Part shown: in pieces, positions 12,862 to 42,877 of the stretch
How the letters are laid out: every line of letters starts with the position of its first letter
Numbering within the stretch: the first letter of the stretch is position 1
Source: an uncultured bacterium
Lineage (GTDB): Bacteria; Fidelibacterota; Marinisomatia; Marinisomatales; JABMOV01
Length of the DNA stretch: 64,000 nucleotides
NCBI GenBank assembly: GCA_964654545.1
Contig: CAZZIU010000014.1
Coordinates: 899-64,898, forward strand
Reading direction: 5' to 3'
The notes under the pieces: generated by a model
Databases searched by the model: none
Told to the model about the DNA's origin: nothing
What the model saw: the letters and a program-made list of their open reading frames with translations, nothing else
Position numbers and translations under genes: made by a program

Positions 12862-14589
12862 ATGGGCATGTATACACATATACGATCGATTATTTCAACC
12901 TGTTTTCTCGTAACCATTTCTTTTTGTTCAACGCAACGGGTTATGACGTATAACACATTGAATTATTCCGGCAGCAATACGGATAAAGATGCGGCATTCC
13001 GGATTGTAATCGAAAACGCAGAGCCGGATATGATAATCGCTGAGGAAATTGGAGATCAATCAGGATACACAAATTTTCTTTCACATGTACTGAACTACAC
13101 GACGAATAATCTATATGCAGGTGCACCCTTTACGGAACAAAGCGAAACCAATGTGGACATCGCCCTGTATTACAAGCCCACTATATTCTCTTTTGTTAGT
13201 ACGAGTAGAATTAATACAACAGATATCTGGGGGAGACGTGATGTAATCGAGTTTGTCATGCGTCATGATGCCTCAGGCGTTGAATTTCGAATATATGGTT
13301 GCCACCTGAAGGCTGGAACCAATTCTGATGACGAAAACGAGCGTACTGCCGAAGCCACCCAATTGCGCAATTATTTGAATTCATTGGATGGTGAGACGCC
13401 ATTCATTGTCGCCGGTGATTTGAATCTTTACGACAACGGGGAGGGGGCATTCCAGGTACTCATTGAGTCACAATCCGACAATGATGGGCGCTGTTTTGAC
13501 CCGGTCGATCGTATCGGAAATTGGCATAATAACGCGTCGTATGCCGATGTGCATACCCAATCCCCGCGAGGTGGAAATTACGGTGGAATGGATGATCGCT
13601 TCGACTGGTTGCTTGTTTCTGATGCAATTTTGAATGGAACCGATATACAATATCTGGAAAATTCATACACCCCCTTTGGAAATGATGGAAACCACTTTAA
13701 TCTTGCCATAAACGAAGGAACAAATACAGCGGTTTCGGCTGCAGTTGCCGATGCCCTCGTGGGCGCCTCAGATCACCTCCCTGTATTCCTGGAATTGGAA
13801 TTTGATGATTTGACACCATCTGAAGCAAAACTTGTCATAACAGAAATCATGCCCAATCCCAGTATGGTCAGTGATACGTACGGGGAATGGTTTGAAGTAT
13901 ATAATCAGGACTCAATTTCCCATAATCTGTTTCATTGGACGCTCAAGGATGCGGATACGGATTCTCATCGCATTGAGGATAATCTTATTATTGAACCGGG
14001 AAATTATATTGTACTGGGAAGAAATGCAGACAGCACACAAAATGGCGGACTGCAGGTTGATTATGTGATCCACAATTTTATTTTATCCAATACGGTGGAT
14101 GAGATCATTTTTTGGGACAGTTTGGGCTACCTGGTGGATGAAGTTGTCTATGACAACACTTTTCCGTTTGGTAACGGTGCTTCCATGTATGTTGCGGATA
14201 TGGAGCTGGACAACAATAATCCTGATAACTGGTATGTTTCCAGTACGCCCTATGGCGTTGGTGATTTTGGCACTCCAGGAAAAGCATGGGACGATACACT
14301 GGGAATTGTAACTGGTTCCATACCAGTATACTTTCATTTATCATCAGCCTACCCAAATCCATTTAATAATGGGGTACGATGGGAGATAGAATTACCTGTT
14401 TCGGCAGAAATGACAATTAAAATTCACAATCTTCTTGGTGAAGAGGTGACAACCATCTGGAGCGGGTATCTTCCTAGGGGGAAACAGAAATTCTCATGGA
14501 ATCCTGTAAATCAGGCTTCCGGCATCTATTTTATTACACTTCAGAGTGTAACGAACGTCCAAAATCTTAAACTGATATATTTAAAATAA
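12862..14589 (+). CDS. secreted EEP nuclease/phosphatase + lamin-tail domain + T9SS C-terminal sorting domain
   Basis: EEP blocks: MTYNTLNY, IIAEEIGD, VAGDLNLYD, DDRFDWLL, SDHLPVFLELEF. LTD block: VITEIMPNPS...GEWFEVYN...WTLKD. CTD: AYPNPFNNG...GIYFITLQS...LKLIYLK. Confidence 0.85.
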   Translation: MGMYTHIRSIISTCFLVTISFCSTQRVMTYNTLNYSGSNTDKDAAFRIVIENAEPDMIIAEEIGDQSGYTNFLSHVLNYTTNNLYAGAPFTEQSETNVDIALYYKPTIFSFVSTSRINTTDIWGRRDVIEFVMRHDASGVEFRIYGCHLKAGTNSDDENERTAEATQLRNYLNSLDGETPFIVAGDLNLYDNGEGAFQVLIESQSDNDGRCFDPVDRIGNWHNNASYADVHTQSPRGGNYGGMDDRFDWLLVSDAILNGTDIQYLENSYTPFGNDGNHFNLAINEGTNTAVSAAVADALVGASDHLPVFLELEFDDLTPSEAKLVITEIMPNPSMVSDTYGEWFEVYNQDSISHNLFHWTLKDADTDSHRIEDNLIIEPGNYIVLGRNADSTQNGGLQVDYVIHNFILSNTVDEIIFWDSLGYLVDEVVYDNTFPFGNGASMYVADMELDNNNPDNWYVSSTPYGVGDFGTPGKAWDDTLGIVTGSIPVYFHLSSAYPNPFNNGVRWEIELPVSAEMTIKIHNLLGEEVTTIWSGYLPRGKQKFSWNPVNQASGIYFITLQSVTNVQNLKLIYLK

Positions 14590-14768
14590 TCGGTTATAAT
14601 GTCATTATCGTTAATCGGATTATTGTTTCGTATTCTAATCCTGACTAATTTGAAATCCTGTTCCGTTCAAATTGTATGCACATAGGATTCACAACATTAT
14701 TCGTCGAAAAAATAAGCAATTTAACGGTCAAATATTTTAATACAAAGCAACACAAAAGGGAGATCATT

Positions 14769-17696
14769 ATGTCTAAAATGATACTCAGTTTATTGGTACT
14801 ATCTTTTTCTTTCGGCCAGGTCACAAATGTTGACTGGGAAACGCAGGTTTATCCCATATTTAGTGATGCCGGCTGTCACAGTTGTCATGGTGCTTCCGGT
14901 GGGTTTACCATTGGTGGAACAGCCACTGAAGCCTATTCTAATATTGTAAACCAAATGAGTTCATGCAATTCGTTGGATTATATTGAACCATTCGATACAA
15001 GTGCATCCCATTTATATCTAAAAATTACTGGCAATCAGGACTGTGGAGCCAGAATGCCCTATAACAACCAAACCTATTTTGATAGCCATACGGATCAACT
15101 TGAATTAATTCAAGTGTGGATTCAGGAAGGTGCCCTTCCGGCAGCAGAAACGACTGATGGTGGTGTCTTTATTAGTGAATATATCGAAGGGTCATCCAAT
15201 AACAAAGCGCTGGAAATATTTAACGCAACTGGTGCTGATTTGGATTTGAGTACTTTGGAAATAAAATTATCACGAAACGGTTTCGGTTGGGGAATGTACG
15301 ATGCGACGACGGCGGAACCAGGCTTTATATATCCATTATCCGGGACATTGCAATCGGGGGATGTGTATGTACTGGCAGCCGATGCAGCTGGAACAGAAAT
15401 ACTTGCAGCAGCGGATGTTGCTCTGGCCTATCCAAGTGTTTGCCATTTTAACGGGGATGATGCCATTGGTCTATTCGAAAATGGTGTTTTAATTGATATC
15501 ATTGGTGTAGAACTCGAAGACCCCGGTTCAGCCTGGGACGTAGCTGGTGAAGGTGCCGCAACGGGAGAACATACTTTGGTTAGAAAAGCTTCTGTGAATG
15601 TTGGCACAACCGATTGGTCGGCTTCCGCCGGTACAAATGCGGATGATTCGGAATGGATAGTTTATGCACAGGATACGTTTGAATATCTTGGTTTCCATGT
15701 CTGGTCTGGTGGGGGCGGAGAAAATCTTGCTCCAGTGGCAAACGCAGGGTCAGATCAAACCGTTGGTTACAGTGAAGAAATAACACTCGATGGATCCTCC
15801 AGTCTTGATCCTGATGGGACCATAGATAGTTACCTTTGGAATCAGGTGAGCGGTACTTCCGTGACACTGAATAATGCACCTACGAGTATTGCGACCTTTA
15901 CATCTCCAGGTAGCGATGCCACTCTGGTATTTACATTACAGGTTACGGATGATCAGGGCGCCACGGATACAGACACCGTTACTGTAAATGTTTTAAATAT
16001 TTCACCTTCAGCTGTATTCTTCAGTGAATACATTGAAGGTTCAAGCTACAATAAAGCTGTTGAAATTTTCAACGGTACAGAAGGAACAATCGACCTGGCA
16101 GATTACCAATTCTGGCAAATTTCCGGAGGTGGAGAATGGCCGGAATATACGATTGATTTGACCGGATCACTGGCAGCAGGTGAAACCTATGTTATTTGTC
16201 ATCCGGATGCTGATGCTGCCATGCTGGCGGTTGCAGATTTGGTTATTACTCTGTATCACAACGGTGATGATGCACAGGGAATTGCCCAAAATTTTGCCGG
16301 TACGTGGATACTCATTGATGCCATCGGGGAAAGCGGTGATGCCCCAACCGGAGGTTGGGATGTTGCCGGTGTATCTCAAGGTACAAAGGATCACACCTTA
16401 GTGCGTCAATCAACCGTCTTAACAGGAAATACGGATTGGTCATCTTCCGCCGGTACCAATGCTTCAGATTCTGAATGGATCGTATACGATGTGAACACAT
16501 TTGATTATTTGGGAACCCATAATCAGAATGCGGATGCGCCAGTGATAGTAAACCTTTCGGCGACGCCGGACTTTGTAACTTCTACGACGGAGTTGGAGGT
16601 GTCGGCCGATATCACGCCAGTCGTAGGTACAGTTACGTCCGCCTCCATCTGGTACGGGACGGATGGTTCTCTTTTGAACGAAGCGGTAATGTGGCTCGAA
16701 TCCGGAACCACATGGATGGGATTAATACCACCCCAATCAGGGAATTCAGTTCTTCAGTTCCAAGTTAGTGGGACTGATGACGCAGGCAACACGGGTGAAT
16801 CCACCACACTGTCCGTATTGGTAGCAAGTTCTACACCAACATCCATCGCAGATATCCAGGCTGATGTCGCTTCTTATGTGGATCAAATTGTGACATTACA
16901 GGGTATTGTAACCATCGGTGTTGGCGTATTGGATGAAGATGACACCAAGGCCTATATCCAGGATGCATCCGGACGAGGATTGAATATTTTTGATTTTGAT
17001 ATATTACCAAATATGGATCGTGGCGATGAACTCCAAATGGTTGGATACATCGATCAGTATTTCACGACGACGGAAATTGTCGATTTTGTATATCAACGAC
17101 TATCCACTGGAAATACGATTCCCGCGGTTCAAGAGGTCACGGTTACACAGGCAAATTCATCAAACTACGAAGGTACATTCATTCAAATTAACGGTGAAGT
17201 AACCAATTCAGTGGTTGTGGGTGGTGGACAAAAAATAACGATTTCCGATGGTGGAGATTCCACTTTTGTGATGATCTGGCCTTCAACCGGAATTGACGTA
17301 ACGCCACTTACTGTGGGATCTACATGGTCGCTTGCCGGTGTAGGCAGTCAGTATTCCGACGAATACCAGCTTTTGGTGGGTTATTCTGATGATATAGTGA
17401 ATCTGGGGATTGATGATGACCTCATTATCCCAACGCAGTTTGGATTGCACAACGCCTATCCCAACCCCTTTAACCCGGCCACCACTTTGACATGGACCCT
17501 GGATCATTCCGGAGAACATGAATTGGCTGTGTACAATATTCTTGGACAGCAGGTGTCAATGCTGAGCAAAGGGTATAAAAATGCCGGTTCATATACATCA
17601 GTCTGGCAGGCGGGAAGCCTCAGTTCAGGAGTGTATTTTGTTCAATTAACGGCTGAAAACAAAAAGGATATTCACAAAATCCTGCTGGTTAAATAA
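14769..17696 (+). CDS. T9SS cargo: PSCyt1-like CXXCH domain + LTD + PKD-like + LTD + NucH-type beta-barrel unit + CTD
   Basis: Start at the internal ATG 14769 (AAGGGAG 7 nt upstream; signal ..SFSFG|Q). GCHSCHG lies at 14874-14888. Two ExeM-type LTDs (VFISEYIEGSSNNKALEIFN and VFFSEYIEGSSYNKAVEIFN). PKD-like block PVANAGSDQTV..LDGSSS.DPDG. The unit IADIQ...VTLQGIVT...YIQDASGRGLNIF..GDELQMVGYIDQY. CTD AYPNPFNPATT...GVYFVQL...ILLVK. Confidence 0.8.
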   Translation: MSKMILSLLVLSFSFGQVTNVDWETQVYPIFSDAGCHSCHGASGGFTIGGTATEAYSNIVNQMSSCNSLDYIEPFDTSASHLYLKITGNQDCGARMPYNNQTYFDSHTDQLELIQVWIQEGALPAAETTDGGVFISEYIEGSSNNKALEIFNATGADLDLSTLEIKLSRNGFGWGMYDATTAEPGFIYPLSGTLQSGDVYVLAADAAGTEILAAADVALAYPSVCHFNGDDAIGLFENGVLIDIIGVELEDPGSAWDVAGEGAATGEHTLVRKASVNVGTTDWSASAGTNADDSEWIVYAQDTFEYLGFHVWSGGGGENLAPVANAGSDQTVGYSEEITLDGSSSLDPDGTIDSYLWNQVSGTSVTLNNAPTSIATFTSPGSDATLVFTLQVTDDQGATDTDTVTVNVLNISPSAVFFSEYIEGSSYNKAVEIFNGTEGTIDLADYQFWQISGGGEWPEYTIDLTGSLAAGETYVICHPDADAAMLAVADLVITLYHNGDDAQGIAQNFAGTWILIDAIGESGDAPTGGWDVAGVSQGTKDHTLVRQSTVLTGNTDWSSSAGTNASDSEWIVYDVNTFDYLGTHNQNADAPVIVNLSATPDFVTSTTELEVSADITPVVGTVTSASIWYGTDGSLLNEAVMWLESGTTWMGLIPPQSGNSVLQFQVSGTDDAGNTGESTTLSVLVASSTPTSIADIQADVASYVDQIVTLQGIVTIGVGVLDEDDTKAYIQDASGRGLNIFDFDILPNMDRGDELQMVGYIDQYFTTTEIVDFVYQRLSTGNTIPAVQEVTVTQANSSNYEGTFIQINGEVTNSVVVGGGQKITISDGGDSTFVMIWPSTGIDVTPLTVGSTWSLAGVGSQYSDEYQLLVGYSDDIVNLGIDDDLIIPTQFGLHNAYPNPFNPATTLTWTLDHSGEHELAVYNILGQQVSMLSKGYKNAGSYTSVWQAGSLSSGVYFVQLTAENKKDIHKILLVK
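15165..15698 (+). repeat. intragenic duplicated module, copy 1 (ExeM-type lamin-tail domain, ~178 aa)
   Basis: Copy 1 VFISEYIEGSSNNKALEIFN...GTTDWSASAGTNADDSEWIVYAQDTFEYLGFH aligns end to end with copy 2. Confidence 0.8.
16014..16520 (+). repeat. intragenic duplicated module, copy 2 (ExeM-type lamin-tail domain, ~169 aa)
   Basis: Copy 2 VFFSEYIEGSSYNKAVEIFN...GNTDWSSSAGTNASDSEWIVYDVNTFDYLGTH is a diverged duplicate of 15165-15698. Confidence 0.8.
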
Positions 17697-17699
17697 ACT

Positions 17700-19703
17700 A
17701 TGAAAAAAATAGCAAGGTATGTATTGATTTTCCTCCCCATTCTATTGGCCGGGGAGGTCGATCATCTCATTTTCTCCGATCTGATTCTTCAACCTAGTGA
17801 TGGTGAATATGTAACCATTACAAATCCCACAAGCGGCGCAATTGACATGAGTGATTACTATATCACAGATGGAGCCGATCCCGGAAACGGTAAATACTAT
17901 TATAATCTCCCTGCCGATTCCAATTATTGGAGCGGATCAAGTTCAGATTTTATAGCACGCTTTCCGTCGGGACTCATGCTGGACGCAGGTGAAACGATAT
18001 TTCTCTCACTGAGAGATGGGGCAAGATTCCAGAGCGAATATGGAAGTCTTCCTGATCTTTCCCTCGATGATGATTTATTAGATGCTGTTACGGGATCGCC
18101 ATCAAAAGGATCTGTTGTTGCAGCAAAGCTGAATAATGCAACTGAATCACTCGTTTTATTTTATTGGGATGGTACAATGCCTACAGTGCAGGATGTGGAT
18201 TATCTGGTATGGGGCGACAACACCTACGCCATAGATAAGTCGGGTATCAGCGGATATGTCAATGAGACACCCCTGGCATCACAGGACGTTTTGCCGGTAC
18301 ACGATGCATCAGAAAAACTAAGTAGAATTAGTGACGAAGGAATCGAGACAACATCAGGTGGAAATGGGATCACAGGGCATGATGAAACCAGTGAACCCTT
18401 TGGTTCGACCTGGACAATTGTAAGTATCACTTCATCAAAACCTGAATTGTCTAATCTGTCTATTGTTCCCGAAGTGCCCACAACTAGTGATCAACTAACA
18501 TTTACCATTGATGTTACCGATGATGACGGGATAGCCAGTGTTGAATTGGTTCGCACGTTTAATTCAATACCAACCGTTACCGAAATGAGCCTTGCTACTG
18601 CTCCACAATATTCGCTCACCATCGATTCACTGGGCGCAGTGGGGCAATTGAGTTATTACGTACGAGCAACCGATAATGTTGGCTTTAAAGATTCCACGAA
18701 TATTAATGCAATAAATATTGTGACACCTCCAGAACCGCCGGAAGATCTATCTATCAAGGATATTCTGGATAGTCTGTCTAATTATGTGGGAGAAACAGTG
18801 ACGATTGATGGGGTAATAGCTGTCCCGGGAGGATTGTTACGAACAACCTTCACTGAAGCCTTTTTGCAGGATAACTCTGAAAGAGGCCTTATTTTATATG
18901 CATCCACGTTGGATACAACCTCATTCAAGCGTGGGGATTCTGTATTGGTAACCGGCGAAGTGGATGAATATAATGGCAAACCGGAATTGATTTATTCTGA
19001 TGTAACAGTATTAAAATCAAATGCAAAAATACCAGTGATTGACTTGACAATTGAGCAATTTAATAGTTTGCAATACGATTACGCATTTGTAGAAATTTGG
19101 GGGAAAATCACCAGTAGGTCCGAACCAACCCCAACCAATACCGGAACAAACGTCTCCATCCAGGATGAGACCGGTGAAACAGCGACTGTACGTATCTGGA
19201 ATTCCACCCGTGTTCTTTACAATGAAACTGGTGATTCAATTCTCCACGTTGAGTTGGATACCTTGCTCCAGGTAGGCAAAGAAATTGTTGTCCGTGGGAT
19301 CGGAGGTCAATATTCCGGAATTGGTCAAATTCAACCGGCTTACGCGAGTGATATTTTTGAAAAACTCGAGGGGGTTGAAGGAGATTATTCCACATCTTTG
19401 ACAATTGCACCGTATCCATTTGTTCCCCAATTTGGTGAAGTAATACAATACACATACAGTTTTCCTGCCAATGCACGAATCAAGCTGCGATTATTTGATA
19501 CGGCAGGAAGGTTAATAAGTACGATATATGATGAGTATCGCACCATATCATTCTACAAAGAAGATGTTTGGAATGGGCGAGATGATCTTAATCAATTACT
19601 TCCACCCGGTGTTTATATAATGCATCTGGAAGTGACCGATACCCAAACCGGAAAATTAACCACGGACATGGCGCCGGTTGTGGTTGGAGCGTACAAGCCA
19701 TGA
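17700..19703 (+). CDS. secreted LTD + Ig-like + NucH-type beta-barrel unit protein with a FlgD-Ig-like C-terminal domain
   Basis: LTD: LIFSDLILQPSDGEYVTITNPT..IDMSDYYITDG. Barrel unit: IKDIL...GETVTIDGVIAV...FLQDNSERGLILYA..GDSVLVTGEVDEYNGKPEL. C-terminus: YPFVPQFGEVIQYTY...LRLFDTAGRL...WNGRDD..PPGVYIMHL. Confidence 0.7.
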   Translation: MKKIARYVLIFLPILLAGEVDHLIFSDLILQPSDGEYVTITNPTSGAIDMSDYYITDGADPGNGKYYYNLPADSNYWSGSSSDFIARFPSGLMLDAGETIFLSLRDGARFQSEYGSLPDLSLDDDLLDAVTGSPSKGSVVAAKLNNATESLVLFYWDGTMPTVQDVDYLVWGDNTYAIDKSGISGYVNETPLASQDVLPVHDASEKLSRISDEGIETTSGGNGITGHDETSEPFGSTWTIVSITSSKPELSNLSIVPEVPTTSDQLTFTIDVTDDDGIASVELVRTFNSIPTVTEMSLATAPQYSLTIDSLGAVGQLSYYVRATDNVGFKDSTNINAINIVTPPEPPEDLSIKDILDSLSNYVGETVTIDGVIAVPGGLLRTTFTEAFLQDNSERGLILYASTLDTTSFKRGDSVLVTGEVDEYNGKPELIYSDVTVLKSNAKIPVIDLTIEQFNSLQYDYAFVEIWGKITSRSEPTPTNTGTNVSIQDETGETATVRIWNSTRVLYNETGDSILHVELDTLLQVGKEIVVRGIGGQYSGIGQIQPAYASDIFEKLEGVEGDYSTSLTIAPYPFVPQFGEVIQYTYSFPANARIKLRLFDTAGRLISTIYDEYRTISFYKEDVWNGRDDLNQLLPPGVYIMHLEVTDTQTGKLTTDMAPVVVGAYKP

Positions 19704-23037: not shown

Positions 23038-23044
23038 GATTAAC

Positions 23045-26304: not shown

Positions 26305-26308
26305 CATC

Positions 26309-27241
26309 ATGCTAAGAATACTTAGCTGGATATTGGCAATAGGTCTTATTCTGCTGATAGCCAGTTGTGCCAAACCCACTGAACCTCAGGACTTGCCAGA
26401 TGATAATGGAACGTCATCGCTTCCATATCCTTCATTACATATTGGAACGGATTCTACCTTTGAAATTGGTACCTGGAATTTGCTGAATTATCCCCACGCA
26501 TCCACATCAAACGTATATATCACTGATATATTAAAGTCGCTGGATGTGGATATGGTTTGTTTCCAGGAAATTAGTAATTCTTTGCAATTTGCCAACATGG
26601 TAAACCTGCTTAATGATATTGATTCGGTAAATACATGGGTTGGGCATGTGGGAAATTCTACCAATTATGACGGACAGGATTTGGCTGTGATTTATAAGGC
26701 CGATATAATTTCACAAATAGAATTCACGGATATTTTTACGAATGAAAGTGGGGCATTTCCTCGTTCTCCATTGAAAATTAAATTTACACTGAACGATGAG
26801 ACATTTATTGTCATTGATAATCATTTAAAAGCCTATGATTCTCAAGAGGATAGAGATAGAAGAAAGAATGCTTGCTCATTGCTGGATACATATATTGATT
26901 CGACCTATCCAAATGACAATGTGATTATCCTTGGTGACATGAACGATGAGGTTACGGATGGCTCTAGTGAGAATGTATTTTTAGCATTTATTGATTCGCC
27001 AGGTGACTATAAAATCGCTGATATGATCATAGCAAGGGGATCTTCACAAAATTGGTCCTACCCAACCTGGCCAAGCCATATTGATCATATTATTATTACC
27101 AATGAATTGTATGATGAGTTTAGCGGAAGCGGTGCAGCAATCAACACAATCCGGATTGATGATGCATTGGACGGTGGTTGGTATGAATATGAAACCAACA
27201 TTTCGGATCACAGACCGGTGGTTTGGTCATTTCCCTTGTAA
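26309..27241 (+). CDS. EEP-family nuclease/phosphatase lipoprotein
   Basis: Internal ATG 26309 gives the lipoprotein signal MLRILSWILAIGLILLIAS|C. EEP blocks: IGTWNLLNY, VCFQEISN, IILGDMNDE, SDHRPVVWSF. Confidence 0.8.
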   Translation: MLRILSWILAIGLILLIASCAKPTEPQDLPDDNGTSSLPYPSLHIGTDSTFEIGTWNLLNYPHASTSNVYITDILKSLDVDMVCFQEISNSLQFANMVNLLNDIDSVNTWVGHVGNSTNYDGQDLAVIYKADIISQIEFTDIFTNESGAFPRSPLKIKFTLNDETFIVIDNHLKAYDSQEDRDRRKNACSLLDTYIDSTYPNDNVIILGDMNDEVTDGSSENVFLAFIDSPGDYKIADMIIARGSSQNWSYPTWPSHIDHIIITNELYDEFSGSGAAINTIRIDDALDGGWYEYETNISDHRPVVWSFPL

Positions 27242-27464
27242 AATATTTCAATTATGTTTTAAATGCACTTCAAATAATTACCCCAAAGCAAGGAAAGATG
27301 AATCGGAATTGGGATACATGAAACCAACGAAAATTCGAGTAAAAAGATAGGAGAATTATTGACTGATTACATTACTTGAGGTAATTTGTCTGGTCTGTAA
27401 AAGGCACGAGGTAAGAAGACAAAATTGGGATGAGCGGAATCCCGTTTTTACTCTGATGGGATAG

Positions 27465-29579
27465 GTGATTTACAACAAATATAATATTCGTGCTATCTGT
27501 ACAATTCTAATTTGTATTTCATCCGTTCAGGCACAGTTTGCACCAGATGTATATGATCAATATACAAGTGTAAATCAATTGGGTCTGACCATAACAAATT
27601 ATGGTGTCCTAGGCAATGATTTAAGACGGATTAATGGTGAGATTTTACCATCATGTAAGTATAAGCAACACTCTGATGTTCTTCGAGAACAGGTTGAGCA
27701 TTTTTCATTTGCAGGAGTTTATATAGGTGGTATTGTAAACGGAGAGCGACGTGTAAGCACATCCATTATAGATGGTCAATTCGAATCCGGTACAGAAGGG
27801 TTTGAGTTTTTTCCTACTTCTGGAATCGATATACGTTCAACCATTTCCACTACTTCAGAGGATCCCATATCACAATATTTTGATACATCAGCAGTATCCC
27901 ATCAGGATATGATTATAAATTTTCGAGATTATGGACAGGTTATCCCCAATCATGAGCCATTAGGCATCGATGTTCACTTGGAATCCTATTCCTGGAATTT
28001 CAATTTTGCAGATGCATTTGATATTTTAAGCTATACAATTACTAATTCATCGCAGGATACGATTAGGGATATATATGCAGGAATATGGGTTGATGCGATT
28101 ATTGTCAATCCAAACTATACAGATATATACAACGGCGTAAGCAGACCGTTTTATTATCATCTTGACGGGTTTGATGAATCATCTGATGAATCTGGGTTTA
28201 ATCGTGATATTGCATATGTATATGATGCTGACGGGGATGATGGATGGTCGGAAACATACCTTGGAATAAAAAGGCTTGGCGGGAATGTTCCTGCAAAATA
28301 TCTCAATTCTCATTATGGCCAGTGGCTATGGAGTGGTTCATCATCAGAATACCCATCCTACATACAGGCACAAAACGATATAGAGCGCTATGAAATTATG
28401 ACATCCAGTGTACCAAAGGGATCAGTGGAAGCGCTCTACACTAGTGAAGGATATCCAAATCAACCTAATAGCTGGTTATTCCAGTTATCATCAGGACCAT
28501 TTGGAAGTTTACCTTTATCTCCCGATTCTACAAGTTGGGCATTACCACCAGGAGAGTCCTGTAATGTTGTATTTGCAGTCGTTGCCGCTCGCTGGAATGG
28601 TGGCGGAGATGACAGTCCCGAAAGAAGAGAAAATCTTTATATCAATTCTGATTGGGCACAACAAGCCTATGATGGGGAAGATAAAAACCGGAATAATATA
28701 TTGGATCCAAATGAAGATGTTAATGGAAATAATATACTGGACAGGTACATATTACCGGAACCTCCACCGAATCCTAATGTCCACGTTCAGGTTGGAGATA
28801 AATCCACAACAATCTATTGGTCTAATGAGGCTGAAAAATTTATCGATCCCATAAGTCAGAAAATTGACTTTGAAGGATATCGAATCTATGGCGCTCGAAA
28901 AACGGCTGGAGATGAATCAATAGAATTTACACTTTTAGGTGATTTTGATGTGTTTATTGACAGTATTCTAAATATTGGATATAACACAGGACTTGATGCT
29001 ATAGAAATTAGAGATGAGAATCAAAATCCCGATTCGGTTTTCATTGATGGACAGGTTTATCATTATAAATTTGAAAACACAGGAATCAATAATGGATGGT
29101 TAAGTTACTACTCGGTAACTGCCTATGATCGCGGTGATCCTGAAGCAAATCTGAAAAGTCTGGAAAGTTCAGTTTACTCAAACAGAGTATATGTCTATCC
29201 TGGTACTACGCCAGCGCACCCGGACTCGGTATGGAATCCAACTGTATACCCAAATCCTTATCGCGGCCAGGCAAAGTGGGATGGTTATGGGAATCGACAA
29301 CGAATGATCTGGTTTCGTCATCTCCCGAAACAAGCCGAAATTAGAATTTTCACACTCGCCGGTGATTTGGTGGACGTGATTCAGCATTCTGAAACATACC
29401 GGGGCGAAGATGTAGCAATCATTGATAGTAGAAAAAACCCCTTAATGAGCGGTGGCGAACATGCGTGGGACCTGATAACCAGATACGATCAGGCCATCGC
29501 TTCAGGGTTATACCTCTTCACGGTGGAAAACACCGAAACGCATGAAATAAAGGAAGGAAAATTCCTGATCATTAAATAA
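27465..29579 (+). CDS. hypothetical secreted protein with a Ca-binding-like DxDxNG repeat and a FlgD-Ig-like C-terminal domain
   Basis: GTG start. Signal ..ISSVQA|Q. DGEDKNRNNILDPNEDVNGNNILD lies at 28671-28742. C-terminus: VYPNPYRGQAKWDG...IRIFTLAGDLV...GLYLFTVEN...FLIIK. I recognise no catalytic motif. Confidence 0.5.
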   Translation: MIYNKYNIRAICTILICISSVQAQFAPDVYDQYTSVNQLGLTITNYGVLGNDLRRINGEILPSCKYKQHSDVLREQVEHFSFAGVYIGGIVNGERRVSTSIIDGQFESGTEGFEFFPTSGIDIRSTISTTSEDPISQYFDTSAVSHQDMIINFRDYGQVIPNHEPLGIDVHLESYSWNFNFADAFDILSYTITNSSQDTIRDIYAGIWVDAIIVNPNYTDIYNGVSRPFYYHLDGFDESSDESGFNRDIAYVYDADGDDGWSETYLGIKRLGGNVPAKYLNSHYGQWLWSGSSSEYPSYIQAQNDIERYEIMTSSVPKGSVEALYTSEGYPNQPNSWLFQLSSGPFGSLPLSPDSTSWALPPGESCNVVFAVVAARWNGGGDDSPERRENLYINSDWAQQAYDGEDKNRNNILDPNEDVNGNNILDRYILPEPPPNPNVHVQVGDKSTTIYWSNEAEKFIDPISQKIDFEGYRIYGARKTAGDESIEFTLLGDFDVFIDSILNIGYNTGLDAIEIRDENQNPDSVFIDGQVYHYKFENTGINNGWLSYYSVTAYDRGDPEANLKSLESSVYSNRVYVYPGTTPAHPDSVWNPTVYPNPYRGQAKWDGYGNRQRMIWFRHLPKQAEIRIFTLAGDLVDVIQHSETYRGEDVAIIDSRKNPLMSGGEHAWDLITRYDQAIASGLYLFTVENTETHEIKEGKFLIIK

Positions 29580-29596
29580 AGAAACAGGAGCATAGA

Positions 29597-32500
29597 ATGA
29601 AAATAAAAACGTTATTAATTCTTTTGGTTCTGGTCTCCGTATCCTTTGGACAGGTGCTTACAATTGGAGAAGCGCGGGCAATGGATGTGGGCGATACAGT
29701 TACCGTAGAAGGAATTGTCACGACTCCTAGCTGGTCAACCGGTTATACGAGTTATCAGATTCAAGATGAAACAGGCGGATTGAATCTGTTCTATTACAGT
29801 CAGTATGTGGCACTTTCCATGGGGGATTTGGTTCAGGTCACCGGATACATTGAGTTGTACAACGGCTTATTGGAAATTATTGCCCTTGACGCTGCATCAA
29901 TCTCTATCGTCAGTTCGGGGAATGCATTACCAGAATCGCAACCATTGACACTATCCGCCCTCCTGAGCGATCCCGAATCATTCGAGTCTGAACTGGTGAC
30001 AATATATAATGCATCTGTTACGGGTGGTACCTGGCCGGCAGAAGGAAGCAGTGCCACGCTTCAAATTTCAGACGATGGTGGAAGCAATCAAGTTGATTTA
30101 CGAATTGATAGTGATACGGATGTTGATGGAAGTACAGAACCGACATGGCCCATGGTGATTACAGGAGTTTTGAGCCAATACGATGGATCTGCTCCTTATG
30201 ATGAAGGTTACCAGATTATGCCCAGAGCGTTAACCGATATTGGTGATCCACCGGCTGGTGTGTCCACCATGGCTGAAGCACGCGCAGATTCTGGTGGAAC
30301 CCATACGGTAAGAGGCTTTGTGAACACTCCACCCTTTGCGTTCTCCAGAACCGATGTGGGATTTCAAGATGCTACAGGTGGATTAAATCTCTTTGTCTAT
30401 AGTCAATATATGTCTACCCTTGAAGTTGGTGATTATATTGAAGCAACCGGTACCGTTATGGATTATAATGGGAAACGTGAACTAAGCTGTGCTGATACCA
30501 CTGCAATCACCATCCTGTATAAAGGATCAACAGTACCACCTGCAATGACTATGACAATCTCAGAAATATTAGCGGATCCGGAGACAATAGAAGGCATGTT
30601 GGTAAAAGTATTAAATGCCACCTATTCTGGAACCTGGCCAACGGGTAGCGGTAGTTTCGATTTGATTGATCCAACCGATACAATGGCCGTATATATTGAC
30701 AGCGATCAACCAATTGCCGGAATGACTCCACCCACCGGTGCGTTCAATTTGACCGGATGGTTGGGTCAATATTATTCTCATCAGATCATGCCGCGCTATG
30801 AAACGGATGTGGAAACATTTGAAAATCAGGCACCTGTTATTGTAAATGTTAGTTATTCACCGTCACCGGTTTACGATGGGGATGATGTGACAATTACAGC
30901 TGAAATAACAGACGACGGAAATTTTACTGCCACATTAGTATATGATGCTGGAGCTGGCGCAGTTGAAGTTGGTATGACGTATGTATCCGGGGATATGTAC
31001 GAAGCTGTTGTGCCCGGTCAATCCGCTGGAACAACGGTGACCTATCACGTGTCTGTAGATGATGGTGATTTGGTTACTGTATCTGATGATTTATCTTATT
31101 TGGTATTATCCTCTGCAGGTGGAACAGTACCAATTTATGATATTCAATATTCGGAAACCGGACCATCTCCTTTGGATGGAAATGAAGTGACCATTTCGGG
31201 TATTGTGACGGCAGAATTCTGGGGTAGTTCAAGCAATCGGTATCTTTATGTTCAAGATTCAACAGCGGCCTGGTGTGGGATCTACGTGTTTGAATATAGT
31301 GGATGGGACAATTTTGATTTTAATTCATCCACAGGAATTGTCCATTCAGTGGCCGAGGGTGACAGTATTTCTCTTACTGGAACGGTCACAGAATACTACG
31401 GTGTTACGGAAATAACCGATGTTACTCAGGTTACGATTTACGGTGAAGGAACTGTTCCGGATCCCATTGTGGTTACACCTGGTCAGGTTAAAACCGATGG
31501 TACAGAACAGGAAGCCTACGAAGGTGTATTGGTAAAAGTTGAGAACGTGGTTATTGCTGAAGAAGCTAATAACTATGGTGAATGGTTAGTTACCGATGGC
31601 ACAGACACATTAAAAGTAGATGATACCTGGGATTACTACTATTGGGGAAGTATGGGTGATACGTTGGCAGAAATTGTCGGTGTAATGGACTATTCATATA
31701 GCGAAGCCAAACTCCAACCGCGTCTGGCCCGCGATGTTGTGGAATCGGGTAATCGTTCACGCATTCAGCGGATTCAACACGTCCTTTACAGTGATCTATT
31801 GAAAACTGGACGGTTGGGTTCTGATGGTACGATTGATCATTCATCTGACATGTCGTATATGAATATTAATCCAGGCGTGGACACTACCTTTGTACAAATC
31901 AAAGGTATTGTAACCATGCCATCCGAGCTGGGTTACGCAGGAGCTGGTGTGAAAGTGATATACCAGGATATTCATGGTGGACCATGGAGTGGTATTCTTT
32001 CCTATGATCCGGATTCAAGTGCTTTTCCAGTCCTTTGGGAGGGCGACACCGTAGAGGTAACCGGTTATATTTCTGAATATGTTACCGACCACGCAAACAT
32101 GACAGAACTATTTGCAACCGATGTACCCAATGTTGTTGGATTTGGTAGTGGAGAACACAGAACCGGTATCCCAGATCCGGAAGTAGTGGAAGCAGGAGAT
32201 TTACGTTGGCCTGAAACCGCTGAACAGTGGGGCAATGTGTTTGTCCAGTTAAACGACCTTACCGTCACCGATGTAAGAACGAGTAATACTAACGAAGGAA
32301 TGTTCTCAGTATCAGATGGTACTGGTGAAGTGTGGATAGATCATGATTCTTGGGTCTGGTTCGACTGGTGGGAGTTGTATGGTTCTCCAGCCGTTGGCAC
32401 TCAAATAGATTCCATCTATGGATGGGTTTATCACCATTTCCATACCTACAGTGATTCAGGTGTATCCACTTACAAAATCGTTCCACTTTACGAAGAGGAC

Positions 32501-32824
32501 ATCTATTTCACAGATGTATCAAACGACGATGTGAGTGTACTTCCTGATGAATATGCATTGCATCAAAACTATCCGAATCCTTTCAATCCTTCCACACAGA
32601 TACAATTTGATGTGGTATCGGACAGTAAGATAAAATTGGTAGTATATGATGTAATGGGCAGGTACGTTCGCACACTAGTGAATGACAATTTGCCCAGCGG
32701 CAAGTATACTGTCACATGGGATGGTAAAAACAACGCCAGACAATCGGTTAGCAGTGGAGTCTATTTTGTTCGTATGACAACAAAGGACTTTGTATCTGTT
32801 AAAAAAATGAGTCTGGTCAGGTAG
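29597..32824 (+). CDS. T9SS cargo built from four tandem bipartite NucH/ExeM-type beta-barrel units, one Ig-like domain and a CTD; no catalytic domain seen
   Basis: Signal ..VSVSFG|Q. The units span 29651-30244, 30245-30820, 31124-31744 and 31745-32509. Each has the pattern I..(I/A)...G..VT..G.VT...hQD..GG..hF....GD.h.h.G.h..Y.G..Eh, for example VPIYDIQYSETGPSPLDGNEVTISGIVTAEF..YVQDSTAAWCGIYVF..GDSISLTGTVTEYYGVTEI. CTD: YPNPFNPSTQIQF...GVYFVRM...MSLVR. Confidence 0.7.
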   Translation: MKIKTLLILLVLVSVSFGQVLTIGEARAMDVGDTVTVEGIVTTPSWSTGYTSYQIQDETGGLNLFYYSQYVALSMGDLVQVTGYIELYNGLLEIIALDAASISIVSSGNALPESQPLTLSALLSDPESFESELVTIYNASVTGGTWPAEGSSATLQISDDGGSNQVDLRIDSDTDVDGSTEPTWPMVITGVLSQYDGSAPYDEGYQIMPRALTDIGDPPAGVSTMAEARADSGGTHTVRGFVNTPPFAFSRTDVGFQDATGGLNLFVYSQYMSTLEVGDYIEATGTVMDYNGKRELSCADTTAITILYKGSTVPPAMTMTISEILADPETIEGMLVKVLNATYSGTWPTGSGSFDLIDPTDTMAVYIDSDQPIAGMTPPTGAFNLTGWLGQYYSHQIMPRYETDVETFENQAPVIVNVSYSPSPVYDGDDVTITAEITDDGNFTATLVYDAGAGAVEVGMTYVSGDMYEAVVPGQSAGTTVTYHVSVDDGDLVTVSDDLSYLVLSSAGGTVPIYDIQYSETGPSPLDGNEVTISGIVTAEFWGSSSNRYLYVQDSTAAWCGIYVFEYSGWDNFDFNSSTGIVHSVAEGDSISLTGTVTEYYGVTEITDVTQVTIYGEGTVPDPIVVTPGQVKTDGTEQEAYEGVLVKVENVVIAEEANNYGEWLVTDGTDTLKVDDTWDYYYWGSMGDTLAEIVGVMDYSYSEAKLQPRLARDVVESGNRSRIQRIQHVLYSDLLKTGRLGSDGTIDHSSDMSYMNINPGVDTTFVQIKGIVTMPSELGYAGAGVKVIYQDIHGGPWSGILSYDPDSSAFPVLWEGDTVEVTGYISEYVTDHANMTELFATDVPNVVGFGSGEHRTGIPDPEVVEAGDLRWPETAEQWGNVFVQLNDLTVTDVRTSNTNEGMFSVSDGTGEVWIDHDSWVWFDWWELYGSPAVGTQIDSIYGWVYHHFHTYSDSGVSTYKIVPLYEEDIYFTDVSNDDVSVLPDEYALHQNYPNPFNPSTQIQFDVVSDSKIKLVVYDVMGRYVRTLVNDNLPSGKYTVTWDGKNNARQSVSSGVYFVRMTTKDFVSVKKMSLVR

Positions 32825-32835
32825 TTGAAAACAAT

Positions 32836-32867
32836 GCAACGGGTGTTCTTTGATGAACACCCGTTGC
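32836..32867 (+). terminator. 13-bp perfect stem-loop at the operon boundary (candidate terminator, no U-tract)
   Basis: GCAACGGGTGTTC-tttgat-GAACACCCGTTGC begins 12 nt after the stop of the 29597-32824 gene. The following sequence (actcataag) lacks a T-run. Confidence 0.4.
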
Positions 32868-32885
32868 ACTCATAAGTCACACACA

Positions 32886-40880: not shown

Positions 40881-40951
40881 CCAGAAGAGTCATAGCATGC
40901 ATAGCATATCTAGCAGTAAATTGATCCCACAATTCAAAATCGGATTAAAGA

Positions 40952-41719: not shown

Positions 41720-41720
41720 T

Positions 41721-41727
41721 AAGGAGG
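41721..41727 (+). promoter_or_regulatory. Shine-Dalgarno site (AAGGAGG) for the 41732 gene
   Basis: AAGGAGG lies 4 nt upstream of the ATG at 41732. Confidence 0.6.
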
Positions 41728-41731
41728 TAGT

Positions 41732-42268: not shown

Positions 42269-42277
42269 GCGTGTTCA

Positions 42278-42811: not shown

Positions 42812-42877
42812 TTTGCATCCTAACGCATATTTGTAAATTCTTTAATTCAATCCACTCGGAAAAATGATTTTGTCCAG

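What the first reader, a model, noticed from the sequence alone, without database searches (positions are those of the whole stretch)
12862..32824. Candidate T9SS-exported extracellular-DNA capture, degradation and uptake locus (a disaggregated ExeM/NucH toolkit)
**What the sequence shows.** Ten co-directional, mostly stop/start-overlapping genes carry these parts:
- three EEP nuclease/phosphatase domains (12862, the C-half of 24388, 26309)
- four lamin-tail domains (one in 12862, two in 14769, one in 17700)
- at least six ExeM/NucH-type beta-barrel units (14769, 17700, four in 29597)
- a ComEA-like HhH domain fused to an outer-membrane barrel (20584)
- a FadL-like channel (23045)
- a PorV/PorQ-like barrel (19700)
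- a catalytically degenerate 5'-nucleotidase-like domain (24388)

Five of these proteins end in T9SS or FlgD-Ig-like sorting domains, and one is a lipoprotein.

**Why it is unusual.** In characterised ExeM/NucH extracellular nucleases, the LTD, the barrel unit and the EEP domain sit in one polypeptide. Here the same parts are spread over separate surface proteins and combined with dedicated outer-membrane barrels. A TonB-dependent receptor operon follows directly.

**Hypothesis.** This looks like a nucleic-acid analogue of a polysaccharide utilisation locus: bind extracellular DNA at the surface, cut it, then import oligonucleotides or nucleotides. I do not know of such an arrangement having been described.
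Basis: partly seen in the sequence, partly recalled or inferred. Interest (0 to 1): 0.85.

Follow-up and report, generated by a model that had tools for sequence, protein, structure and literature searches.

The report
Two-module extracellular DNA uptake locus, Marinimicrobia
An uncultured marine bacterium (Marinimicrobia/SAR406) carries two adjacent gene modules that look built to catch, cut and import environmental DNA, and one of them centres on an undescribed outer-membrane barrel fused to a ComEA-type DNA-binding domain that is conserved across several uncultured phyla.

Summary
All listed domains are present at the stated coordinates: three EEP domains, four LTDs, exactly six OB units, HhH, FadL-like and PorV-like barrels, and a degenerate 5'-nucleotidase domain.

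The locus is not one ten-gene unit. It has three parts:
- **An accessory nuclease gene** (12862).
- **Module A** (14769-27241): LTD/OB surface proteins, a PorV-like barrel, an HhH-fused barrel of about 24-26 strands, a FadL-like barrel, a pseudo-5'-nucleotidase-EEP fusion and an EEP lipoprotein. It is colinear in 56/56 to 73/73 Marinimicrobia loci. Its barrel core recurs in Krumholzibacteria, WOR-3 and Elusimicrobiota beside active 5'-nucleotidases or a PLD nuclease.
- **Module B** (27465-39920): an unknown protein, a 4xOB DUF5689 protein, a lipoprotein, a TonB-dependent transporter, PorV and NHL.

Module B mirrors the DdbC/DdbD logic of the Bacteroides ddbABCDEF DNA-utilisation locus (2025) and the Riemerella transformation genes. 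The "PUL for DNA" idea is therefore already published. Module A's HhH-barrel triad appears undescribed.

Function is inferred from domains, structure models and synteny only.

The parts
12862..14589 (+). Accessory secreted nuclease: signal peptide, EEP nuclease domain, lamin-tail domain, T9SS type A CTD
   Evidence: Pfam hits to Exo_endo_phos, LTD and Por_Secre_tail; TIGR04183 scores 32.8 against a cutoff of 23. Catalytic residues are intact. The gene is present in only a few relatives. In L004 an Endonuclease_1+CTD gene sits at the same position.
14769..17696 (+). Module A surface protein: PSCyt1-like CxxCH domain, LTD, PKD, LTD, OB unit, T9SS CTD
   Evidence: Two LTDs (89.8 bits), K319L-like PKD, and a CTD scoring 49 bits. 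OB unit at aa 700-785. The N-terminus is 38% identical (E = 2e-25) to P0427, which carries PF07635. Colinear in 31/39 loci.
17700..19703 (+). Module A surface protein: LTD, Ig-like region, OB unit, atypical (PorU-C-terminus-like) CTD
   Evidence: LTD at 29.7 bits; ExeM_NucH positions 31-96; PorU C-terminus E = 8e-6. OB unit at aa 359-438. Colinear in 56/56 loci. Homologues lie upstream of the HhH-barrel in L005 (E = 4e-187), L089 and L006.
19700..20587 (+). PorV/PorP-like FadL-superfamily outer-membrane barrel; probable docking partner of the 17700 protein
   Evidence: PorV_fam E = 1.3e-8. The family profile hits only PorV in the PDB. Some homologues carry PorP_SprF or TraF_2. The AF2 model has pLDDT 87.8 and its best TM score is to PorV, 0.74. 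Colinear in 73/73 loci and in 5/6 cross-phylum loci. Its start overlaps the stop of 17700 by 4 nt.
20584..23037 (+). Signal peptide, two ComEA-type HhH units (aa ~18-176), then a beta-barrel of about 24-26 strands (aa 191-817); candidate DNA channel
   Evidence: HHH_3 matches 18/18 family members. The AF2 model has pLDDT 85.5 and pTM 0.81. Only generic large barrels match in the PDB, TM 0.25-0.33. The family spans 283 clusters at 50% identity and at least 326 species genomes. Lumen-class strand positions are net positive in 51/51 members, by a crude estimate.
23045..24388 (+). FadL/TodX-family outer-membrane barrel
   Evidence: Toluene_X at 36.8 bits against a cutoff of 29.7. Colinear in 72/73 loci. 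A homologue lies directly downstream of the HhH-barrel in 6/6 cross-phylum loci, E = 1e-10 to 8e-64.
24388..26304 (+). SPI signal, catalytically degenerate UshA-like 5'-nucleotidase N-domain fused to an intact EEP nuclease domain; probably periplasmic
   Evidence: NCBIfam hits to UshA, SoxB and CD73-like models; PDB alignments show the metal ligands are lost. EEP at 46.6 bits. Colinear in 65/66 loci. Other lineages carry an active ~545-aa 5'-nucleotidase at the same position.
26309..27241 (+). Lipoprotein EEP nuclease (DNase I-like clade)
   Evidence: Exo_endo_phos at 51.4 bits; MnuA E = 3e-11; ExeM_NucH E = 7e-10. Profile against the PDB: DNase gamma 3.6e-9, DNase I 2e-7, SMase C 0.02. The lipobox Cys and the catalytic residues are invariant. 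Colinear in 47/58 loci.
27426..27444 (.). Terminator-like hairpin in the 223-nt gap between module A and module B
   Evidence: Detected on both strands by the consensus scan. It coincides with the synteny break between the two modules. This is a consensus match only.
27465..29579 (+). Module B: 704-aa secreted protein of unknown fold with a PorZ-like C-terminus
   Evidence: No Pfam hit even at E <= 5. PorZ C-terminus E = 1.2e-6. Colinear with the rest of module B in L091 (59%) and L092 (45%).
29597..32824 (+). Module B: four OB/DUF5689 units plus a T9SS CTD; candidate DNA-binding partner of the transporter (DdbD-like role)
   Evidence: DUF5689 E = 3.7e-16; tRNA_anti-codon E = 3.5e-15; ExeM_NucH 95 bits; CTD 38 bits. 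Four units. Homologues elsewhere are fused to nucleases.
32850..34676 (+). Module B: lipoprotein of unknown fold, translationally coupled to the transporter gene
   Evidence: Lipobox IVSC. No family hits. 4-nt overlap with 34673. Conserved in position in L091 (45%) and L092 (34%).
34673..37468 (+). Module B: TonB-dependent transporter with an N-terminal CarboxypepD_reg domain (DdbC-like architecture)
   Evidence: CarbopepD_reg_2 and Plug; TonB-hemin 102.6 bits (below its cutoff of 316.85), the best of several sub-cutoff TonB-dependent receptor matches. 64% identical in L091 and 50% in L092, in the same order.
37468..38466 (+). Module B: PorV/PorQ-family barrel
   Evidence: NF033709 at 173 bits against a cutoff of 90. 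Conserved after the transporter in L091, L092, L044 and L059.
38466..39920 (+). Module B: NHL-repeat protein
   Evidence: NHL E = 5e-14. Conserved at the end of module B in L091 and L092.
491..6781 (+). Context: SprA, the T9SS translocon that would export the CTD-bearing proteins
   Evidence: SprA_N E = 8e-32.

Best explanation
The region is a two-module system for scavenging extracellular nucleic acid in a Marinimicrobia (SAR406) bacterium.

**Shown here:**
- the domain identities;
- the barrel folds, from models;
- the loss of the 5'-nucleotidase metal-binding motifs;
- the conserved gene order.

**Inferred mechanism:**
1. CTD-bearing proteins are exported by the T9SS, whose translocon SprA is encoded 6 kb upstream, and displayed on the cell surface. 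The LTD/OB proteins (14769, 17700) and the 4xOB DUF5689 protein (29597) bind DNA. The EEP-LTD nuclease (12862) cuts it.
2. The 17700 protein keeps its atypical CTD and docks on the cognate PorV/PorP-like barrel encoded directly downstream (19700). This follows the model of PorZ on PorQ, or type B cargo on PorP/SprF.
3. Fragments cross the outer membrane through the barrel of about 24-26 strands (20584), which works with the two flanking FadL-family barrels. Its N-terminal tandem ComEA-type HhH units, presumed periplasmic, hold the incoming strand and bias movement inward.
4. In the periplasm the pseudo-5'-nucleotidase-EEP fusion (SPI signal) and the EEP lipoprotein degrade the DNA to nucleotides. 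In most other lineages an active UshA-type 5'-nucleotidase at the same position releases nucleosides and phosphate.
5. Module B is a second, TonB-energised route, analogous to Bacteroides DdbC/DdbD. It comprises the DUF5689 protein, a lipoprotein, a TonB-dependent transporter and a PorV-family barrel.

The main purpose is nutrient acquisition, with phosphate first.
For: - **Domain content**.
- **Module A gene order in Marinimicrobia.** It is colinear down to 38% anchor identity: LTD_OB 56/56, PorV-like 73/73, FadL-like 72/73, UshA-like/EEP 65/66, EEP lipoprotein 47/58.
- **Cross-phylum core.** Homologues of the PorV-like barrel lie upstream in 5/6 loci and homologues of the FadL-like barrel lie downstream in 6/6. 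An active Metallophos+5_nucleotid_C gene follows in 5 loci, and a 193-aa PLDc_2 gene follows in the sixth. In the Elusimicrobiota locus an ABC importer comes next.
- **Enzyme swapping at fixed positions**.
- **HhH domain.** HHH_3 matches 18/18 family members.
- **Barrel models.** Both are confident. The small barrel is most like PorV.
- **EEP lipoprotein clade.** Its profile sits nearest DNase gamma and DNase I.
- **Barrel lumen.** Lumen-class positions are Arg-rich and net positive in 51/51 members, by a crude estimate.
- **OB/DUF5689 unit elsewhere.** It is fused to Endonuclease_1, SNase, metallo-beta-lactamase and YhcR-type 5'-nucleotidase domains.
- **ExeM experiments.** The OB region and the EEP domain are essential for DNase activity (PMC6085458).
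- **Module B order.** It is conserved in L091 and L092.
- **T9SS precedent.** Cognate PorV-like barrels anchor cargo that keeps its CTD (PMC10202324).
Against: - There are no experimental data for any of these proteins.
- The organism is uncultured.
- The topology of the HhH units, whether the barrel is open or plugged, and any contact among the three barrels are all unknown. Model coordinates could not be inspected and no multimer prediction was available.
- The barrel has no specific solved homologue (TM <= 0.33), so 'channel' is an inference.
- LTD function is unproven. It is dispensable for ExeM clearing zones.
- In the window lineage the 5'-nucleotidase is dead, so the last catabolic step is missing locally.
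- Homology of the transporter to DdbC was not tested.
- Module B is present next to module A in only about 6 of 44-52 loci.
- The lumen-charge estimate has no control set.
Confidence: 0.6

Rival explanations
1. The same machinery imports intact DNA for natural transformation (competence) rather than for food. Surface OB/LTD proteins capture DNA, the HhH-barrel or the TBDT carries it into the periplasm, and ComEC-type machinery encoded elsewhere takes it into the cytoplasm.
For: - ComEA-type HhH units are hallmark competence parts.
- JGI and NCBI name family members 'ComE-like' or 'ComEA family'.
- The Riemerella DUF5689+TBDT pair is essential for natural transformation.
- The ddb authors regard the two functions as evolutionarily linked.
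Against: - The HhH-barrel is nearly always followed by degradative enzymes: EEP nucleases, active 5'-nucleotidases, a PLD nuclease, and in one case an ABC importer. These would destroy transforming DNA.
- No comEC, dprA or pilus genes lie in the window or in the inspected flanks.
Confidence: 0.15
2. The region is a cluster of T9SS cargo, surface nucleases and DNA-binding adhesins, together with their dedicated PorV/PorP-like anchoring barrels. It serves to bind or remodel extracellular DNA on particles or biofilm matrix, or to release nucleotides outside the cell. No DNA passes through the HhH-barrel.
For: - Five proteins carry CTD-like ends, four PorV-family barrels lie within 30 kb, and SprA is adjacent.
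- PorV-like barrels are known cargo anchors.
- T9SS-secreted nucleases that act on biofilm or NET DNA are known in Prevotella and Riemerella.
Against: - The barrel triad recurs in genomes labelled WOR-3 and Elusimicrobiota, phyla not known to carry T9SS (my recollection, not checked), and next to SPI-type enzymes that are probably periplasmic.
- An N-terminal HhH fused to an OM barrel is hard to explain as an anchor.
- The transporter in module B implies import.
Confidence: 0.15
3. The substrate is not DNA but another phosphoester polymer or lipid, such as RNA, phospholipid, sphingolipid or teichoic-acid-like material. On this reading the EEP domains act as phosphodiesterases or phospholipases and the FadL-like barrel imports hydrophobic products.
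For: - The EEP superfamily includes sphingomyelinases and lipid phosphatases.
- FadL-family channels classically carry hydrophobic molecules.
- PLDc_2 can be a phospholipase.
Against: - The EEP profile is nearest DNase gamma and DNase I; SMase C scores only E = 0.02.
- NCBIfam best hits are the MnuA and ExeM/NucH nucleases.
- HhH, OB/DUF5689 and Endonuclease_1 are nucleic-acid parts.
- The 193-aa single-HKD size fits Nuc-type nucleases (my knowledge).
- RNA as a co-substrate is not excluded.
Confidence: 0.06

Closest known systems
ddbABCDEF DNA-utilisation locus of Bacteroides thetaiotaomicron (Sharan et al. 2025, bioRxiv 10.1101/2025.03.18.642099), and the related Riemerella anatipestifer transformation genes RA0C_RS04915/RS04920 (PMC8459023)
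   Same: - Both are PUL-like in logic: secreted or lipoprotein nucleases, a TonB-dependent transporter with a CarboxypepD_reg N-terminus, and a DUF5689 (OB-fold) DNA-binding partner.
- Proteins are sorted into compartments by SPI or SPII signal.
- Module B of the window has the same parts in a conserved order.
   Different: - Here the DUF5689 protein is a 4-unit T9SS-CTD protein, not an SPII lipoprotein.
- It is separated from the transporter by an unknown lipoprotein.
- Extra conserved members are present: a 704-aa unknown protein, a PorV-family barrel and an NHL protein.
- The host phylum is Marinimicrobia, not Bacteroidota.
- Direct homology of the transporter to DdbC was not tested.
- Module A has no counterpart in ddb.
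ExeM/NucH extracellular nucleases (Shewanella ExeM; NCBIfam NF033680/NF033681; PMC6085458)
   Same: The building blocks are the same: LTD, a YhcR-like OB region and an EEP nuclease domain. The window's OB units and EEP domains align to the matching parts of the ExeM_NucH model.
   Different: - No window protein reaches the family cutoffs (best 95 against 300 bits, and 121 against 1300).
- The parts are spread over at least five proteins.
- The sorting signals are T9SS CTDs or a lipobox, not GlyGly-CTERM.
ComEA (periplasmic DNA receptor of competent bacteria)
   Same: Tandem HHH_3-type helix-hairpin-helix units are present. The proposed role is holding incoming DNA in the periplasm.
   Different: - ComEA is a small soluble or membrane-anchored protein. 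Here the HhH units are fused to a ~630-residue outer-membrane barrel.
- The ComEA family models are not met (17 bits against cutoffs of 53 and 152).
T9SS PorV/PorQ/PorP-SprF barrels with their cognate cargo (PorZ-PorQ, SprB-SprF)
   Same: - A FadL-superfamily barrel is encoded directly after a cargo gene with an atypical CTD.
- The model's best structural match is PorV (TM 0.74).
- Some homologues are annotated PorP/SprF.
   Different: - The sequence score is below the PorV_fam cutoff (34.9 against 90).
- The same barrel family sits beside the HhH-barrel in genomes labelled WOR-3 and Elusimicrobiota, phyla not known to carry T9SS (my recollection, not checked).
Bacillus subtilis YhcR (wall-anchored OB + SNase + 5'-nucleotidase nuclease)
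   Same: It combines an OB fold, a nuclease and a 5'-nucleotidase for extracellular nucleic-acid breakdown. Homologues of the window's OB unit are named YhcR-like by JGI.
   Different: YhcR is a single Gram-positive polypeptide with no outer-membrane transport component.

Membership tests
ExeM/NucH family extracellular endonuclease (NF033681 / NF033680) | One polypeptide scoring above the curated cutoff (300 / 1300 bits) | tested here: not met
   Best scores: 95.1 bits (29597), 38.3 (26309), 19.7 (12862); ExeM-GG 120.9 (14769).
ExeM/NucH family extracellular endonuclease (NF033681 / NF033680) | LTD + OB region + EEP domain present | tested here: met
   All three domain types are present but on separate proteins. 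Only 12862 combines two of them (EEP and LTD).
ddb-type DNA-utilisation locus (DdbC-anchored) | TonB-dependent transporter homologous to DdbC / RA0C_RS04915 | not tested
   The architecture matches (CarboxypepD_reg + Plug). No DdbC sequence was available in the tools for direct comparison.
ddb-type DNA-utilisation locus (DdbC-anchored) | DUF5689 protein encoded beside the transporter | tested here: met
   PF18942 E = 3.7e-16 in 29597, one gene away from the transporter. The order is conserved in L091 and L092.
ddb-type DNA-utilisation locus (DdbC-anchored) | Secreted or periplasmic nucleases in the locus | tested here: met
   Three EEP domains with intact catalytic residues. L091 has an EEP-CTD gene directly before module B.
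ddb-type DNA-utilisation locus (DdbC-anchored) | Locus required for depletion of exogenous DNA | not testable with these tools
   This needs genetics or heterologous expression.
Polysaccharide utilisation locus (SusC/SusD pair) | SusC-type transporter (TIGR04056) with an adjacent SusD-like lipoprotein | tested here: not met
   TIGR04056 scores 68 bits against a cutoff of 368. The adjacent lipoprotein 32850 has no SusD or any other family hit.
T9SS type A cargo (TIGR04183 / PF18962) | C-terminal sorting domain above the cutoff (23 bits) | tested here: met
   Met for 12862 (32.8), 14769 (49.0) and 29597 (38.0). Not met for 17700 (19.7). 27465 has only a PorZ-C-terminus-like match.
PorV/PorQ family (NF033709) | Sequence score above 90 bits | tested here: not met
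   19700 scores 34.9 bits, although its fold is closest to PorV (TM 0.74). 37468 is a member (173 bits), as is 10149 (104 bits).
FadL/TodX family (PF03349) | Score above the gathering threshold of 29.7 bits | tested here: met
   23045 protein: 36.8 bits, covering profile positions 19-351 of 421.
ComEA (TIGR01259 / TIGR00426) | Family model cutoffs (152 / 53 bits) | tested here: not met
   17.5 and 17.0 bits. Only the HHH_3 domain is shared, in 18/18 family members.
UshA-type 5'-nucleotidase | Metallophosphoesterase motifs DxH, GD, GNH(E/D), H, GHxH, plus the 5_nucleotid_C domain | tested here: not met
   The window protein has ExQ, GD, GVF, S and GGxS, and carries an EEP domain in place of 5_nucleotid_C. 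Syntenic ~545-aa forms in other lineages keep all the motifs.
DNase I-like EEP nucleases | Catalytic residues intact, and profile similarity closest to DNases rather than lipid or inositol phosphatases | tested here: met
   E87, H172, D210, N212, D259, D300 and H301 are invariant. PDB profile hits: DNase gamma 3.6e-9, DNase I 2e-7, TDP2 5e-5, SMase C 0.02. Enzyme activity is not testable here.

The most novel reading that the evidence does not exclude
The HhH-fused barrel of about 24-26 strands, together with its two flanking FadL-superfamily barrels, is a previously unrecognised outer-membrane DNA translocon that lacks a TonB plug. This would be a third route for DNA across the Gram-negative outer membrane, alongside the type IV pilus/PilQ route and the DdbCD-like TonB-dependent route. 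It is widespread in uncultured phyla (Marinimicrobia, Krumholzibacteria, WOR-3, Elusimicrobiota) and would make abundant deep-ocean SAR406 cells direct consumers of dissolved DNA.
Probability: 0.35. Interest if true: 0.85.

Novelty: new variant of a known kind. Interest (0 to 1): 0.72.

Why it matters
- **Ocean nutrient cycling.** Dissolved DNA is a major phosphorus, nitrogen and carbon pool in the ocean, yet few consumers and no outer-membrane uptake route are known outside Proteobacteria and Bacteroidota. Marinimicrobia (SAR406) are abundant in the dark ocean and in oxygen minimum zones.
- **A marker and a testable candidate.** A conserved, easily recognised module gives a genomic marker for DNA foraging: an HhH-barrel flanked by a PorV-like and a FadL-like barrel, with a 5'-nucleotidase or nuclease alongside. 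It also gives a concrete candidate for a new type of DNA channel.
- **Reach of the ddb/Riemerella logic.** The tandem presence of this module and a ddb-like TonB module at one hotspot suggests that the DUF5689-plus-transporter logic, known so far from Bacteroides and Riemerella, extends across the FCB superphylum and has an alternative transporter solution.

Tried and rejected
- Single-sequence PDB searches with the 26309 protein, the 12862 EEP domain and the 24388 C-half EEP domain found nothing useful. Only a family profile of 26309 was informative.
- The 51-sequence alignment was too diverse for a locus scan, so a closer 18-sequence alignment was used.
- Model coordinates are not exposed. 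Pore radius, plug loops, HhH placement and electrostatics could not be measured, and only a crude strand-parity charge count was possible.
- The promoter scan found fewer sites than shuffled sequence and was uninformative.
- Pfam at E <= 5 gave nothing for 27465, 32850 or 39927.
- The sequence relation of the TBDT to DdbC could not be tested because no reference sequence was reachable.

**Readings rejected**
- An anti-phage defence reading: no PADLOC hits.
- 'A single conserved ten-gene unit': rejected by synteny.
- Membership in ExeM/NucH, ComEA and PUL: rejected on curated cutoffs.

Full report
**1. Observation.**
Pfam and NCBIfam confirm the following.
- Three EEP domains, in 12862, the C-half of 24388, and 26309.
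- Four LTDs. The one in 17700 is sub-threshold.
- A FadL/Toluene_X barrel above threshold.
- A borderline HHH_3 hit in 20584.
- A weak PorV/PorQ match in 19700.
- UshA/SoxB/CD73-like similarity in the N-half of 24388.
- T9SS type A CTDs above cutoff in 12862, 14769 and 29597, with only PorU- or PorZ-C-terminus-like ends in 17700 and 27465.

A jackhmmer search seeded with one unit finds exactly six OB units: four in 29597, one in 14769 and one in 17700. Alignment to solved 5'-nucleotidases shows that nearly all metal ligands of the UshA-like domain are replaced. The lipobox cysteine and the catalytic residues of the 26309 family are invariant.

**2. Organism and context.**
Homologues are named Candidatus Marinimicrobia/Neomarinimicrobiota. 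The T9SS translocon SprA lies at 491-6781. It is followed by an M28 peptidase, unknown proteins, two PorV-family barrels and a Polysacc_deac_2 gene. Downstream of 39920 come a 317-aa protein, a 255-aa OMP, YtfJ, NUDIX and QueG, then housekeeping genes.

**3. The locus is modular.**
Gene spacing gives two tight blocks, 14769-27241 and 27465-39920. They are separated by 223 nt that hold a terminator-like hairpin. I fetched 80 species-level loci through the HhH-barrel; at least 326 genomes carry a relative. I mapped all window proteins onto these loci by tblastn.

| Module A gene | Colinear loci (of those with enough flank) |
|---|---|
| LTD_OB | 56/56 |
| PorV-like barrel | 73/73 |
| FadL-like barrel | 72/73 |
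| UshA-like/EEP | 65/66 |
| EEP lipoprotein | 47/58 |
| 2xLTD protein | 31/39 |
| 27465 (module B) | 6/52 |
| 29597 (module B) | 6/44 |

Homologues of 29597 led to two loci where 27465-29597-32850-TBDT-PorV-NHL is colinear without module A.
- L091 has 40-64% identity.
- L092 has 30-50% identity and is a second copy in the same MAG as L003.

L091 has the same flanking backbone as the window. L002 and L004 have that backbone with module A only. One hotspot therefore holds A, B or A+B. The 12862 gene is accessory. In L004 its place is taken by an Endonuclease_1+CTD gene.

**4. Module A, the novel part.**
- **HhH-barrel family.** The 20584 family has 283 clusters at 50% identity and full-length members down to ~27% identity. 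Every one of 18 tested members matches HHH_3, and no Pfam model covers the rest of the protein.
- **HhH-barrel model.** The AF2 model (pLDDT 85.5, pTM 0.81) has a helical N-terminus with two HhH units and a barrel of about 24-26 strands. Foldseek finds only generic large barrels (FrpB, ushers, MtrB, LptD) at TM 0.25-0.33.
- **Lumen charge.** A crude strand-parity count gives Arg-rich, net-positive lumen positions in 51/51 members.
- **The 19700 barrel.** Its model (pLDDT 87.8) is closest to PorV (TM 0.74). Some homologues carry PorP_SprF or TraF_2.
- **EEP lipoprotein.** Its profile is nearest DNase gamma and DNase I, with sphingomyelinase far behind.
- **Two forms at the UshA-like position.** One is a ~545-aa enzyme with all metallophosphoesterase motifs. 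The other is a ~630-660-aa protein with degenerate motifs fused to EEP. The window lineage is the most degenerate.

**5. Cross-phylum conservation.**
Members from Krumholzibacteria, WOR-3, Elusimicrobiota and unnamed lineages keep the arrangement.
- A homologue of the PorV-like barrel lies directly upstream in 5/6 loci.
- A homologue of the FadL-like barrel lies directly downstream in 6/6 loci.
- LTD/OB or DUF5689 proteins lie upstream in several loci.
- Next comes an active 5'-nucleotidase in five loci, or a 193-aa PLDc_2 protein in WOR-3.
- The Elusimicrobiota locus continues with ABC permeases and a solute-binding protein.

A fixed barrel triad beside interchangeable nucleic-acid enzymes is the strongest argument for function.

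**6. Module B and the literature.**
DUF5689 led to two papers.
- In Riemerella, a CarboxypepD_reg TBDT and a DUF5689 protein are essential for natural transformation (PMC8459023).
- In B. thetaiotaomicron, ddbABCDEF comprises three nucleases, the TBDT DdbC, the DUF5689 protein DdbD and DdbE. It is required for DNA depletion, and its authors explicitly compare it to a PUL.

Module B has the same logic with extra members. I found no paper describing the HhH-barrel module.

**7. Mechanism.**
Shown here: domains, folds from models, motif loss and synteny. The inferred steps are:
1. T9SS display of the LTD/OB proteins and a nuclease.
2. Docking of the 17700 protein on the 19700 barrel, by analogy with PorZ-PorQ and type B cargo-PorP/SprF.
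3. Passage of fragments through the 20584 barrel, with capture by its HhH units.
4. Periplasmic degradation by the SPI-type pseudo-nucleotidase-EEP fusion and the lipoprotein EEP.
5. Release of nucleosides and phosphate where the 5'-nucleotidase is active.

Module B offers a TonB-energised parallel route. I put 0.6 on this nutritional capture-cut-import reading.

**8. Rivals.**
- **Natural transformation (0.15).** It fits the ComEA-like units and the Riemerella precedent, but is weakened by the constant company of degradative enzymes.
- **A secretion/anchoring cluster without import (0.15).** It fits the many PorV-like barrels, but is weakened by the triad's presence in genomes labelled WOR-3 and Elusimicrobiota, which I do not recall carrying T9SS (not checked), and by the HhH-barrel fusion.
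- **A non-nucleic-acid substrate (0.06).** It is weakened by the DNase-like EEP profile, HhH, OB and Endonuclease_1.
- **Defence.** There are no PADLOC hits.

**9. Comparison and membership.**
- No window protein meets the ExeM/NucH, ComEA or SusC cutoffs.
- 23045 is a FadL-family member.
- 37468 and 10149 are PorV-family members.
- 19700 is PorV-like by fold only.
- Module B meets the domain-level features of a ddb-type locus, but homology to DdbC is untested.

**10. Verdict.**
The feature is real and conserved. It is a new variant of the recently described DNA-utilisation loci, found in a different phylum. Its transporter module (HhH-barrel plus two FadL-family barrels) appears undescribed and could be a new kind of DNA channel. 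All functional claims remain inferences.

Noticed in passing
window 14826-15143 (CxxCH at 14874-14888): The N-terminus of the 14769 protein has a CHSCHG (CxxCH heme-attachment-like) motif. It is 38% identical (E = 2e-25) to the N-terminus of P0427, whose precomputed Pfam includes PSCyt1 (PF07635). Several LTD/DUF5689 proteins carry this domain. A cytochrome-c-like module on a T9SS-exported DNA-binding protein is unexplained.
   Followed up: partly
window 6778-12786 and 39927-43825; L091, L002, L004: The same genomic backbone (M28 ... Polysacc_deac_2 on one side; 317-aa protein, 255-aa OMP, YtfJ, NUDIX and QueG on the other) holds module A only, module B only, or both. This behaves like an integration or exchange hotspot. 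L004 also has a phage-type integrase about 6 kb upstream of module A.
   Followed up: partly
window 24388-25500; loci L042, L044, L046, L050 and others: Two forms occur at the same syntenic position. One is an active-looking ~545-aa 5'-nucleotidase. The other is a ~630-660-aa pseudo-nucleotidase fused to EEP. Motif loss is stepwise, and the window, L003 and L007 have additionally lost DxH. This is a clear case of a retained pseudoenzyme domain.
   Followed up: yes
window 10149-11099, 11096-11962, 19700-20587, 37468-38466: Four PorV/PorQ-family barrel paralogues lie within 30 kb, each next to CTD-bearing cargo genes. This suggests cargo-specific anchors in Marinimicrobia.
   Followed up: partly
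window 22174-22218 (aa 531-545 of the 20584 protein): The most conserved stretch of the HhH-barrel family is a Tyr/Arg/Asn-rich loop motif, YD(L)xYDNPYxRxFSNY. It lies in a 46-residue loop between strands and was the pattern used to find 326 genomes. It may be a constriction or substrate-contact loop.
   Followed up: no
L090 8001-11756: This is a 1251-aa variant in which TPR repeats precede the HhH units and the barrel. It is followed by a FadL-like protein, a 5'-nucleotidase and two small LTD proteins.
   Followed up: no
L088 5030-9717: In an Elusimicrobiota MAG the HhH-barrel/FadL-like/5'-nucleotidase trio is followed directly by two ABC permeases and an SBP_bac_1 binding protein. This may be the inner-membrane step for the released products.
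   Followed up: no
L052, L067, L071: Contigs with Marinimicrobia-type module A are deposited under MAGs labelled Winogradskyella, Flavobacteriales and Lentisphaeria. Mis-binning or mislabelling is likely.
   Followed up: no
window 8548-10176 and 7694-8551: Upstream unknown proteins: a 542-aa protein with a FlgD_ig/PorZ-like C-terminus, and a 285-aa protein with a choice-of-anchor X motif. Both are conserved in L091 and L092. Their function is unknown.
   Followed up: no
window 14676, 22901, 24346, 26249: The longest mechanical ORFs start upstream of the likely true starts. The signal peptides begin at 14769, 23045, 24388 and 26309, so automated annotation may over-extend these genes.
   Followed up: yes
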